A program made the position numbers. From Ctenodactylus gundi (Eukaryota): a stretch of 64,000 nt of DNA. Numbering within the stretch: position 1 is the stretch's first letter; each line of letters begins with the position of its first letter. Of the stretch, positions 45,783 through 48,700 are shown piece after piece. The stretch is from positions 72,952,529 through 73,016,528 of the forward strand of contig CM109696.1 of NCBI GenBank assembly GCA_048771875.1, written 5' to 3'.

Positions 45783-48700
45783 ATCAGGATTAACATACCT
45801 TCCCTCTCCCCCTCTTTTTTTTTTTGAGACAGGATCTTGCTCTGTAGCTCAGGCTGGTCCTGAGCTCACTATGGCGCCCAGGCTCGCCTTGAACTCACAG
45901 CAGTCTTCTGACTCAGCCTCCTGAGTGCTGGGATTACAGGCTACAGTTGAGTGCCACCACACCCAGTTTATGTGATGCTAGGGAATCAACTCTGGTACTT
46001 AGCGCTTTCTAGGAAAGTTCTTTAACTGCTGAGCCATTCTTCCAGCCCTTGCCCCTATTTTTGGCCCTCCCATATCTCCCTGTCCCCCTGTAACTTCCAC
46101 TGTTACACCCATTTGGTTCTATAGAATGCATGTGTTCTGGGTTTTCCCAAATCAGAGAAAACATGCTATATTTAACATATTTAATCTTTTGCATCTGACT
46201 CACTTTACCACTCAAATCACCTCTTATTAGCTCAGTTTCCCACCCTTAGAATGACTGCAGTGGCCGTATCTTGATGCCTCTTCTCTGGGTCCAGCAGAGC
46301 CCTTTATTGGGATGATTTGTCAGAAGTTCATTTTTTCTGTATGTTACTATATCTTTGTTGAGATGCTTTAATGTGGATTCACCCATTAGTCCACATAAGA
46401 AGAGAACTATAACAATGAAATTCATAAGGCTAGAAAATGTGAGAAAGAATAGGAGAGAAGTTAAGTTTCTTTTTTTCTTTTTTTTTTTTTTTTTGTGGGA
46501 GACAGGGTCTCAGCCCAGGCTGGCCTTGGACTCGCAGCAGTCCTTCTGTTTTTCAGCCTCCGGAGTGCTGGGATTACAGGCTACAGTTGAGTGCCACCAC
46601 ACCCAGTTTATGTGATGCTAGGGAATCAACTCTGGTACTTAGCGCTTTCTAGGAAAGTTCTTTAACTGCTGAGCCATTCTTCCAGCCCTTGCCCCTATTT
46701 TTGGCCCTCCCATATCTCCCTGTCCCCCTGTAACTTCCACTGTTACACCCATTTGGTTCTATAGAATGCATGTGTTCTGGGTTTTCCCAAATCAGAGAAA
46801 ACATGCTATATTTAACATATTTAATCTTTTGCATCTGACTCACTTTACCACTCAAATCACCTCTTATTAGCTCAGTTTCCCACCCTTAGAATGACTGCAG
46901 TGGCCGTATCTTGATGCCTCTTCTCTGGGTCCAGCAGAGCCCTTTATTGGGATGATTTGTCAGAAGTTCATTTTTTCTGTATGTTACTATATCTTTGTTG
47001 AGATGCTTTAATGTGGATTCACCCATTAGTCCACATAAGAAGAGAACTATAACAATGAAATTCATAAGGCTAGAAAATGTGAGAAAGAATAGGAGAGAAG
47101 TTAAGTTTCTTTTTTTCTTTTTTTTTTTTTTTTGTGGGAGACAGGGTCTCAGCCCAGGCTGGCCTTGGACTCGCAGCAGTCCTTCTGTTTTTCAGCCTCC
47201 GGAGTGCTGGGATTATAGGTGTGTGCCACTACACCTGACTTGTGTGATGCTGAGGAATCAAGCTCAGGTACTTAGCACTTGCTTAAGCACTTGTTGGCAA
47301 GCACTTTAACTGCTGAGCCATACCTCCATCCCAGAAGTTAAATTTCAAATTCCTTAGTTGAGTACTTAAAGGTAAATGTTTGTACATTCAAAAGACATTC
47401 AGGTTGTCATTGTATCAATCAGGTTTATCTTTTTTATTTTTTATTTTTTGTGACAGGGCCTCATTCCATAGCCCTGGCTGGTTCTAAACTCAGTGTGGAG
47501 CCCAGGCTGATATTGGACTCACAGCCAGTCTTCCTGTCTCAGCCTCTTCTAGTTCTGGGATTACAAGTGTGCGCCACCACTCACAGCTTACATTGTGCTG
47601 GAGAACTGAACTCAGATATTTACCTCTTGCCTAAGGTAGGCAAGGGCTTTAGCCACCAAGCCATTCCTCCAGCCCCCATCAATTAGTTTTTTATAGGATA
47701 AACTTACATCCAAGACCAAATGAGTGAATCACATTAAATGAGCTTAAGACTGTATCAGATTGCTACATTAAATGAACTTAAATCTGTATCACATAAGTAT
47801 ATTACACTTCAAGAGTGGCATGCTTAATTATTTCACATTTTTTAACTTTTGTAAGTTATTTAGTCACATTTCACTAATTACTAACATTTTGCTTTGGTTT
47901 ATCATTTTACCTACCTATCCATCTCTAACTTCATGCATACATATTTTTAAAGATATGCCAGTTTCCCATGTTGAATATAATTACAATGTTTTGTAAACTT
48001 ACATGCTATTAAAAACAATACTTATGGGGCTGGAGGAATGGCTCAGTGGTTAAAGTGCTTACCTAGCAAGCACTAAGTCAAGTGCTAAGTACTCGAGTTC
48101 AATTCCCCAGCATTCCATAAGCTGGGCATGGTGGTACATACCTGTAATCACAGTACTCGGAGACCGGGATTGCTGGAGACCGGGATTGCCGTGAGTCCAA
48201 GGCCAGCCTGGGCTACATAGTTAGTTCAGGACTAGCTGGGGCCAGAGAACAAGACCCTGTCTCAAAAAGTAATAATTATGGGGTAGGATTAACAGATTTT
48301 ATGAGACAGTTGGTACTATTTTAGAAGGATACCATTCAAATGATTCAAATACCAGTCTATTTTTTTGTTATACTCTCTTTAGGTGTTTCCTCCATGTTTT
48401 TTGGTGCTGCTTGTCTCTGCCTCTCTCAAAGATTCCTTCAAATCTTTTCTCCGATGCTGGGCTAGTTGTTGCAAATTTCTTTAGGGATTCCTGGTCATGA
48501 AAAATTTTTACTTCTTCAATTTTCAGGGATAATTTTGCAGGATATAACAATCTGGGTTGACTTGCTGTCTTTTAAAACTTGGAAGATCTTGCTCCAGTCT
48601 CTCCTAGCTTTTAAAATTTGCATTTAGAAATCTGCAGTAATTTGAATGAGTTTTCCTTGGTAGAATTATGCCTGTTTTTCTCTTGCTGCTTTTTATATTT

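What the first reader, a model, noticed from the sequence alone, without database searches (positions are those of the whole stretch)
45924..47203. Perfect 640-bp tandem duplication with edges in SINEs (recent unequal crossover or assembly artefact)
Two 640-bp units are 100% identical by eye. Each carries a minus-strand SINE, a family X repeat copy and a poly-T/SINE. The junctions fall in the conserved GAGTGCTGGGATTACAGG SINE block, the pattern expected from SINE-mediated non-allelic homologous recombination. Zero divergence means either a very recent event or an assembly collapse or expansion.
Basis: seen in the sequence. Interest (0 to 1): 0.5.

Follow-up and report, generated by a model that had tools for sequence, protein, structure and literature searches.

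The report
SINE-mediated 640-bp intronic tandem duplication
Two old, same-orientation SINE retroposons in an intron of a rodent-type MPHOSPH8 gene recombined at a shared 14-base stretch, leaving a very young, almost perfect 640-bp tandem duplication with a hybrid SINE at its centre; this is an ordinary, well-known kind of mammalian structural change.

Summary
Window 45923-46576 (654 nt) and 46563-47215 (653 nt) have no substitutions. They differ by one T in a homopolymer (T17 vs T16), so the periods are 640 and 639 nt. GAGTGCTGGGATTA occurs three times in register (45923, 46563, 47202) and is the crossover interval.

The middle SINE (46470-46688) is an exact chimera. Its tail side matches the right-hand SINE C (47110-47332). 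Its head side matches the left-hand SINE A (45815-46048). The parents are old insertions, 11-14% from the local consensus. They match at 85% of aligned positions and need 51 gap columns to align. SINE C has a clean 14-bp target-site duplication; the chimera has mismatched flanks.

Each unit carries a fragment of a LINE-1-related repeat ("family X"). The site lies in intron 1 of an MPHOSPH8 orthologue, about 2 kb downstream of exon 1, and duplicates no exon.

Because the parents are so divergent, a microhomology-mediated SINE/SINE rearrangement (the Alu/Alu-mediated type) fits better than classical NAHR. An assembly artefact is unlikely: there is no gap, the junction is in register, and the parents share no exact word longer than 18 nt. 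Reads would be needed to exclude it. Interest is low.

The parts
45815..46048 (-). Parent SINE A. It is a full-length ID-like (tRNA-Ala-type head) + B1 (7SL-type) composite SINE on the minus strand. Its poly-T (the reverse complement of the A tail) is at 45815-45825 and its head ends at 46048. Its B1 part has both copies of the 29-nt internal duplication.
   Evidence: It is 10.9% substitution-diverged from the consensus of 21 window copies. The paralogous family-X copy at 8640-8730 is an empty site for this insertion. Its own target-site duplication is degenerate (about CCTTCCCT / CTTGCCCCT) and not clean.
45923..45936 (.). First copy of the 14-nt crossover block GAGTGCTGGGATTA, inside SINE A. 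On the SINE sense strand it reads TAATCCCAGCACTC.
   Evidence: 45922 T is the last base specific to SINE A before identity with copy 2 begins.
45923..46562 (.). Duplication unit, copy 1 (640 nt). It holds the head-side part of SINE A (to 46048), the family-X fragment (46049-46469), and poly-T plus the tail-side SINE part (46470-46562).
46049..46469 (+). Family-X fragment, copy 1. It is part of the 3'-terminal region of a LINE-1-related interspersed element. It ends in AGAAGTTAAGTTTC (46456-46469), the left target-site duplication of SINE C.
   Evidence: It is 74-80% identical to window 8274-8686 and 23-310, inverted. With the SINEs removed, the homology runs on through both SINE insertion sites.
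46470..46688 (-). Chimeric (recombinant) SINE at the centre of the duplication. 46470-46576 is identical to SINE C's tail side apart from one extra T. 46563-46688 is identical to SINE A's head side. The two stretches overlap in the 14-nt block 46563-46576.
   Evidence: Alignments and diagnostic positions. The flanks do not match: C's target-site duplication is on the left and A's flank TTGCCCCTATTTTTGG is on the right. The junction 16-mer GGAGTGCTGGGATTAC is unique in the window.
46563..47201 (.). Duplication unit, copy 2 (639 nt). It is identical to copy 1 except for T16 in place of T17 (47118-47133 against 46478-46494).
   Evidence: 653 matches, 0 mismatches, 1 gap.
46689..47109 (+). Family-X fragment, copy 2. 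It ends in the left target-site duplication of SINE C (47096-47109).
47110..47332 (-). Parent SINE C. It belongs to the same composite family on the minus strand and is a shorter variant lacking about one 29-nt B1 repeat unit. It is flanked by the 14-nt target-site duplication AGAAGTTAAGTTTC (47096-47109) / AGAAGTTAAATTTC (47333-47346). It contains the third copy of the crossover block at 47202-47215, followed by the C-specific T at 47216.
   Evidence: The paralogue at 8240-8310 has a single AGAAGTTAAATTTC, which marks it as an empty site. SINE C is 14.0% substitution-diverged from the consensus.
43675..43887 (+). Context: coding part of exon 1 of an MPHOSPH8 (M-phase phosphoprotein 8) orthologue. 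A GT donor sits at 43888. The exon lies in a CpG island (43000-44500).
   Evidence: PDB MPP8 chromodomain chains match, E=1.2e-4. tblastn and the protein search support the assignment. CpG observed/expected is 0.74-1.06.
63269..63421 (+). Context: exon 2 of the same gene, encoding the rest of the chromodomain. Intron 1 is therefore 43888-63268, and the duplication begins 2,036 nt into it.
   Evidence: Hits carry PF00385 Chromo, and several are named M-phase phosphoprotein 8.

Best explanation
This is a genuine, evolutionarily very recent tandem duplication made by recombination between two old, same-orientation, diverged SINEs, here called A and C.

The ancestral arrangement was X-left / SINE A / X-middle / SINE C / X-right. 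Both SINEs had inserted independently into a LINE-1-related repeat inside intron 1 of MPHOSPH8. A strand exchange or template switch then occurred between SINE C on one chromatid or template and SINE A on the other. It took place inside the shared 14-nt block GAGTGCTGGGATTA (TAATCCCAGCACTC on the SINE sense strand). The product is SINE A / X-middle / chimeric SINE (C tail + A head) / X-middle / SINE C.

Because the parents are highly diverged and the exchange sits in a short block of identity, the most likely route is microhomology or homeology-driven repair. That means a replication template switch of the MMBIR/FoSTeS type, or homeologous unequal sister-chromatid exchange. These are the routes proposed for Alu/Alu-mediated rearrangements, as opposed to classical long-homology NAHR.

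What is shown: the product structure, the breakpoint interval and the age asymmetry. What is inferred: the pathway, and that the sequence is not an artefact.

The duplication has no evident function. It is non-coding, intronic and presumably neutral.
For: 1. Near-identity: 653/653 matching bases with one homopolymer indel, periods 640 and 639.
2. The central SINE is an exact in-register chimera. Diagnostic bases bracket a 14-nt crossover interval that is present three times.
3. SINE C has a 14-nt target-site duplication, confirmed against an empty-site paralogue. The chimera has non-matching flanks, which is the hallmark of a recombinant SINE.
4. The parents are old: 10.9% and 14.0% from the local consensus. 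Between them, 157 of 184 aligned bases match and 51 columns are gaps. The duplicated copies show zero substitutions, so the duplication long post-dates both insertions.
5. With 0 substitutions in 653 sites, the 95% upper bound on age is about 1.0 My at 2.2e-9 per site per year and about 0.5 My at 4.5e-9 (the rates are from general knowledge).
6. The breakpoint block is the counterpart of part of the 26-bp Alu core, where Alu/Alu junctions are enriched. Chimeric elements with under 25 bp of microhomology are the stated signature of such events (PMC6071635). Placing the block within that core rests on my recalled Alu consensus.
7. Against an artefact: the window has no N or gap. The longest exact word shared by A and C is 18 nt. 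The junction 16-mer occurs once among 49 SINE segments. Documented false duplications sit at contig boundaries or gaps, or are haplotype copies (PMC8081667).
Against: - No read-level, population or cross-species data could be obtained. The exact-ORF look-up, two metagenome scans and one prokaryote-genome scan found nothing, and the protein search returned only spliced transcripts or a retrocopy.
- Zero substitutions is also what a false duplication would show.
- The 1-nt T-run difference does not discriminate. It could be a slippage mutation or homopolymer consensus noise.
- The pathway cannot be read from the product.
Confidence: 0.8

Rival explanations
1. Assembly artefact. The genome has one copy (A / X / C), and the assembler or a gap-closing or merging step laid the same 640 bp down twice, joining redundant contig ends in the conserved SINE core.
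For: The copies are substitution-free. Contigs from graph assemblers tend to end in the most repeated k-mers, such as the conserved SINE core. False duplications are a common assembly error class (PMC8081667). The window is SINE-dense, at 14.6%.
Against: There is no N or gap anywhere in 64 kb, although the window contains 774-bp LTRs 99.5% identical and long microsatellites that are resolved. The join is a perfectly in-register chimeric SINE. The parents share only 14 nt at the junction and 18 nt at most anywhere, too little for k-mer or overlap mis-joins. The junction 16- to 40-mers are unique in the window. Described homotype false duplications are read-length sized and sit at contig boundaries with a gap.
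Confidence: 0.15
2. An older SINE-mediated duplication whose two copies have since been homogenised by gene conversion or unequal exchange. On this reading, zero divergence reflects recent conversion and not recent origin.
For: Tandem repeats of this size can undergo conversion. The product structure is the same whatever its age.
Against: Conversion would have to cover the entire 653 nt exactly up to the chimera boundaries. It would also have to leave the chimeric SINE identical to both parents over its 107- and 126-nt parts. One recent event is more parsimonious. No partial-identity gradient is seen; identity ends abruptly at the diagnostic bases.
Confidence: 0.04
3. Classical meiotic NAHR (allelic-type homologous recombination needing long identity) between the two SINEs, as the first reader literally phrased it, in place of microhomology-mediated repair or template switching.
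For: The two SINEs are in direct orientation 1.3 kb apart, and the product is reciprocal-type (duplication). The exchange lies in one of the best-conserved SINE blocks.
Against: The parents match at only 85% of aligned positions with 51 gap columns, and no identity tract exceeds 18 nt. [quoted passage not shown]
Confidence: 0.2

Closest known systems
Alu/Alu-mediated rearrangements (AAMR) and Alu recombination-mediated deletions or duplications in primates (Song et al. 2018, PMC6071635; Sen et al. 2006 and Han et al. 2007 as cited there)
   Same: Two directly oriented 7SL-derived SINEs act as substrates. The junction is an intact, in-register chimeric SINE. The microhomology is short (14 nt, under 25 bp). 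The junction lies in the TAATCCCAGCAC region, which corresponds to the 26-bp Alu core hotspot. The chimera lacks matching target-site duplications.
   Different: The substrates are rodent-type ID-like+B1 composite SINEs, not Alu. The product is a duplication, whereas the catalogued cases are mostly deletions. The event is very small (640 bp), intronic and not disease-associated. The parents are more diverged than typical AluS/AluY pairs.
Non-allelic homologous recombination (NAHR) between low-copy repeats
   Same: Direct repeats flank the duplicated segment, and the product is a tandem duplication with a hybrid repeat at its centre.
   Different: The repeats are about 220-235 nt and match at about 85% of aligned positions with many indels. 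This is far below the long, over 95% identical tracts that define NAHR substrates.
False (homotype or heterotype) duplications in genome assemblies (Rhie et al. 2021, PMC8081667)
   Same: Adjacent, virtually identical copies of a segment in an assembled sequence.
   Different: There is no gap or contig boundary. The size is well below read or haplotig scale. The boundaries fall at homologous positions of two different SINEs and create a precise chimera.
Rodent complex SINEs that join an ID/tRNA-Ala-derived monomer to a B1 monomer (the B4-type ID-B1 architecture; B1-dID is a related hybrid, Kramerov & Vassetzky 2001, cited in PMC3531059)
   Same: In the window consensus, positions 1-77 align to my recalled ID sequence, including the block AGCGCTTGCCTAGCAAGCGC. 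Positions 85-227 align to my recalled B1, including the 29-nt internal duplication and the A tail.
   Different: The family was not assigned, because no repeat library was available and the reference sequences came from memory. Rfam tRNA and SRP models and ARAGORN do not score these decayed copies.

Membership tests
SINE/SINE (Alu/Alu-type) recombination-mediated rearrangement | Two SINEs of the same family, in the same orientation, flank the rearranged segment. | tested here: met
   SINE A (45815-46048) and SINE C (47110-47332) are both minus-strand and both match the same window consensus.
SINE/SINE (Alu/Alu-type) recombination-mediated rearrangement | An in-register chimeric SINE sits at the junction, with each part identical to one parent. 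| tested here: met
   46470-46576 equals the C tail side (apart from one T). 46563-46688 equals the A head side. Diagnostic bases are 46562 G and 46577 C.
SINE/SINE (Alu/Alu-type) recombination-mediated rearrangement | A short stretch of perfect identity (microhomology) lies at the breakpoint. | tested here: met
   The 14-nt block GAGTGCTGGGATTA is present three times in register. It is the second-longest exact block shared by the parents.
SINE/SINE (Alu/Alu-type) recombination-mediated rearrangement | The parental SINEs have their own target-site duplications and the chimera has non-matching flanks. | tested here: met
   SINE C has a 13/14-matching 14-nt duplication, with a single-copy empty site in the paralogue at 8240-8310. 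The chimera has C's left duplication and A's right flank. SINE A's own duplication is degenerate, so that part is only weakly met.
SINE/SINE (Alu/Alu-type) recombination-mediated rearrangement | An ancestral single-copy state exists in other individuals or species. | not testable with these tools
   No eukaryotic genome collection was available. Look-ups and scans returned nothing usable.
Classical NAHR | Long tracts (hundreds of bp) of near-perfect identity between the recombining repeats. | tested here: not met
   The parents match at 85.3% of aligned positions with 51 gap columns. The longest exact shared word is 18 nt.
Assembly false duplication | The duplication lies at a gap or contig boundary, or the copies are haplotype variants. 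| tested here: not met
   There is no N in the window. The copies abut directly through a chimeric SINE and show no haplotype-like substitutions. Contig boundaries hidden by gap closure cannot be seen in the sequence.
Assembly false duplication | Halved read depth, or no reads spanning both copies. | not testable with these tools
   No reads were available.
ID-B1 type complex rodent SINE | A tRNA(Ala)/ID-derived 5' monomer is followed by a 7SL-derived B1 monomer and an A tail. | tested here: inconclusive
   The consensus aligns to ID, B1 and 7SL sequences recalled from memory. Curated models gave no hit. No repeat library was available.

The most novel reading that the evidence does not exclude
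The duplication could be a very young, possibly still polymorphic structural variant. It lies 2 kb downstream of the CpG-island promoter and first exon of MPHOSPH8, a HUSH-complex subunit that silences retroelements. By doubling a LINE-1-derived/SINE segment in intron 1, it might alter regulation or HUSH targeting of the gene's own intron. Nothing in the sequence supports a regulatory effect; it is merely not excluded.
Probability: 0.03. Interest if true: 0.35.

Novelty: new member of a known kind. Interest (0 to 1): 0.12.

Why it matters
This matters little beyond bookkeeping. It is a clean example of SINE/SINE-mediated duplication in a rodent-type genome, with the breakpoint resolved to 14 nt. 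It shows that SINE pairs matching at only about 85% of aligned positions, with many indels, can still mediate rearrangement through the conserved 7SL-derived core. In practice it is a site to check when validating this assembly: it may be a false duplication, or it may be a copy-number polymorphism usable as a marker. No coding sequence is affected.

Tried and rejected
- Tandem Repeats Finder missed the repeat because the period exceeds its 500-nt limit. I used offset comparisons and global alignment instead.
- Independent evidence for copy number all failed. The exact look-up of 10 ORFs from the unit and the junction in the 15-billion-protein collection found none. Two exact-word scans of metagenome contigs and one of prokaryote genome contigs gave 0 hits.
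- I tried to reach the orthologous intron through the MPHOSPH8 protein. The best hits were short Logan/ENA contigs (0.9-2.8 kb) covering both exons, so presumably spliced transcripts; this was confirmed only for L002, which is intron-less. The best was 84% identical, and the same species was not found. The one genomic hit, in Fukomys damarensis, is an intron-less retrocopy.
- Rfam at gathering and at E<=10, and ARAGORN, gave no tRNA or SRP hit for the SINEs. The only hits were low-complexity miRNA-model matches on the (TG)n(TA)n tract.
- ORFs inside the unit have no Pfam match, so I dropped a coding reading.
- I rejected independent insertion of three SINEs. The chimera lacks a target-site duplication, and 421 nt of non-SINE sequence is duplicated with it.
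- I rejected single-strand annealing or end-joining of one double-strand break, because those give deletions and not duplications.

Full report
**1. The observation**

The window is uninterrupted ACGT with no N. It has the look of rodent-type mammalian DNA.

- An offset comparison shows window 45923-46493 identical to the sequence 640 nt downstream. After a one-base shift, 46479-46576 is identical to the sequence 639 nt downstream.
- A global alignment of 45923-46576 (654 nt) with 46563-47215 (653 nt) gives 653 matches, 0 mismatches and 1 gap column. The gap is one T in a homopolymer: T17 at 46478-46494 against T16 at 47118-47133.
- The 14-mer GAGTGCTGGGATTA occurs at 45923, 46563 and 47202, once at each edge of the two units.
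- Identity stops at 45922 (T, against G at 46562 and 47201) and at 46577 (C, as at 45937, against T at 47216).

'100% identical' is right for substitutions but overlooks a 1-nt homopolymer difference. Tandem Repeats Finder was silent only because its longest period is 500. The repeat finder reported the pair at spacings of 640 and 639.

**2. Anatomy**

A blastn of the flanking elements against the window shows an abundant SINE family: 49 segments, 14.6% of the window.

- A consensus of 21 copies is 227 nt.
- Positions 1-77 align to an ID/tRNA-Ala-type sequence, including AGCGCTTGCCTAGCAAGCGC.
- Positions 85-227 align to a complete B1, with the 29-nt internal duplication and an A tail. Through B1 they also align to the 5' end of 7SL RNA.
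- The reference sequences were recalled from memory, so this is a lead and not a formal classification. Rfam and ARAGORN do not score these decayed copies.

Three minus-strand copies matter here:

- SINE A (45815-46048) is full length and 10.9% from the consensus.
- SINE C (47110-47332) is a shorter variant and 14.0% from the consensus.
- The central SINE (46470-46688) lies between them.

Pairwise alignments show that the central SINE equals SINE C from the poly-T to the 14-nt block, and equals SINE A from the 14-nt block to the head. A and C themselves match at only 157 of 184 aligned positions, with 51 gap columns. Their longest shared exact words are 18 nt (CTTTAACTGCTGAGCCAT) and then the 14-nt junction block.

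SINE C is flanked by a 14-nt target-site duplication: AGAAGTTAAGTTTC at 47096-47109 and AGAAGTTAAATTTC at 47333-47346. A paralogous copy of the surrounding repeat, at 8240-8310, has this sequence once. It is therefore an empty site. The central SINE has C's left duplication (46456-46469) but A's right flank, so its flanks do not match. SINE A's own target-site duplication is degenerate.

**3. The sequence between the SINEs ('family X')**

Segments 46049-46469 and 46689-47109 are 74-80% identical to 8274-8686 and 23-310, in inverted orientation.

When both SINEs and one duplicated unit are removed in silico, the homology to 8230-8785 runs straight through both SINE insertion sites. With all SINEs masked, 45640-50723 is collinear with 8785-5666.

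The upstream parts of these elements match LINE-1 5'UTR/ORF1 sequence elsewhere in the window; 17760-18074 carries Pfam Tnp_22_dsRBD. The extreme end of X weakly resembles an L1 3' end. Family X is therefore the 3' region of a LINE-1-related element. SINE A and SINE C are two independent, old insertions into it.

**4. Context**

The ORF at 43630-44061 contains EEDGEDVFEVEKILDMKTE. This matches PDB chains of the M-phase phosphoprotein 8 chromodomain, E=1.2e-4. The rest of the chromodomain is encoded at 63269-63421. The joined exons retrieve Chromo-domain proteins, several of them named M-phase phosphoprotein 8.

Exon 1 (CDS 43675-43887, GT donor at 43888) lies in a CpG island. Intron 1 is 43888-63268, and the duplication starts 2,036 nt into it. 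No exon is duplicated. The small ORFs in the unit have no Pfam match and are absent from the protein collection.

**5. Mechanism**

The product A / X / (C-tail + A-head chimera) / X / C is the expected outcome of an exchange between SINE C on one template and SINE A on the other. Diagnostic bases place the switch inside GAGTGCTGGGATTA.

On the SINE sense strand this block reads TAATCCCAGCACTC. By my recollection of the Alu consensus, that is the counterpart of part of the 26-bp Alu core (CCTGTAATCCCAGCA...). Song et al. report that Alu/Alu junctions are enriched at or near this core. They also describe the signature of such events as an intact chimeric Alu with microhomology mostly under 25 bp. 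[quoted passage not shown]

Given the divergence of A and C, I favour that class of mechanism over strict NAHR. For a duplication, this means a backward template switch or a homeologous unequal sister-chromatid exchange. The pathway is inferred and cannot be read from one product.

**6. Age**

There are no substitutions in 653 aligned sites, while the parent SINEs are 11-14% from their consensus. The duplication is therefore far younger than the insertions.

With P(0) = exp(-2*mu*t*L), the 95% upper bound is about 1.0 My at 2.2e-9 per site per year and about 0.5 My at 4.5e-9. The rates come from general knowledge. The single T-run length change is the kind of mutation expected first. Gene conversion could reset this clock, but it is a less parsimonious reading.

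**7. Real or artefact?**

No reads, populations or related genomes could be reached, so this stays open in principle. The sequence argues for a real event:

- There is no gap or N.
- The 64 kb is contiguous through much harder repeats, including 774-nt LTRs 99.5% identical and long microsatellites.
- The junction is a perfectly in-register chimera.
- The parent SINEs share no exact word longer than 18 nt, and only 14 nt at the junction. Neither a k-mer graph nor an overlap step should join them.
- The junction 16- to 40-mers are unique among all SINE copies in the window.
- Documented false duplications are haplotype copies, or read-length copies at contig boundaries with a gap (PMC8081667).

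I put about 0.8 on a real recent event and about 0.15 on an artefact.

**8. Verdict**

This is an ordinary instance of a well-known class, SINE/SINE-mediated rearrangement, in a non-coding intron. It is a new instance of a known kind and of low interest.

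Noticed in passing
window 19375-33198 (minus strand): This is a nested pair of LTR retroelements. The outer endogenous retrovirus has 315-nt LTRs (19375-19689 and 32884-33198) that are 95.9% identical, with TG..CA ends and a 5-nt target-site duplication, CAGTG. It carries gag-like ORFs (31935-32781 and 23842-24318), a protease with dUTPase (23011-23694) and a reverse transcriptase (21952-22530). It is interrupted by an ORF-less, AT-rich element (24432-31797). That element has 774-nt LTRs differing at only 4 sites and a 4-nt duplication, TGGC, so it is a young insertion.
   Followed up: partly
window 5666-8785 (+) and 45640-50723 (-): Two inverted, collinear copies (about 70-86% identical once SINEs are masked) of an element of about 3 kb. 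There is no room for an ORF2. It may be an ORF1-only L1 derivative (HAL1-like) or an internally deleted L1 subfamily.
   Followed up: partly
window 43000-44500, 43675-43887 and 63269-63421: A CpG island (GC 0.60-0.65, CpG observed/expected up to 1.06) lies around exon 1 of an MPHOSPH8 orthologue. Exon 2 lies 19.4 kb downstream. The N-terminal 122 residues are at most 84% identical to anything in the protein collection, so the source species appears to be absent from it.
   Followed up: partly
window 16456-18853 and 34805-37224: An inverted pair of LINE-1 fragments, 83% identical over 2.4 kb. They contain ORF1 (Tnp_22_dsRBD, 17760-18074) and ORF2 endonuclease remnants.
   Followed up: no
window 45630-45779: A compound (TA)n/(TG)n/(TA)n microsatellite lies immediately upstream of SINE A, at the SINE A insertion site of family X. 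It gives sub-threshold Rfam matches to mir-297, mir-466 and mir-1277 models. These are low-complexity artefacts.
   Followed up: yes
whole window: SINE density is very high. There are 49 segments of one ID-like+B1 composite family, making up 14.6% of the sequence. They are clustered especially at 53-60 kb, where several copies abut one another (for example 54957-55388, 59521-60002 and 38814-39287).
   Followed up: partly
L001 9983-10450 (Fukomys damarensis KN123237.1): The protein annotated 'M-phase phosphoprotein 8' (123 aa) in Fukomys is encoded by a 450-nt stretch that joins exon 1 and exon 2 sequence without the 19-kb intron. It is a processed retrocopy fragment and not the orthologous gene.
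   Followed up: partly
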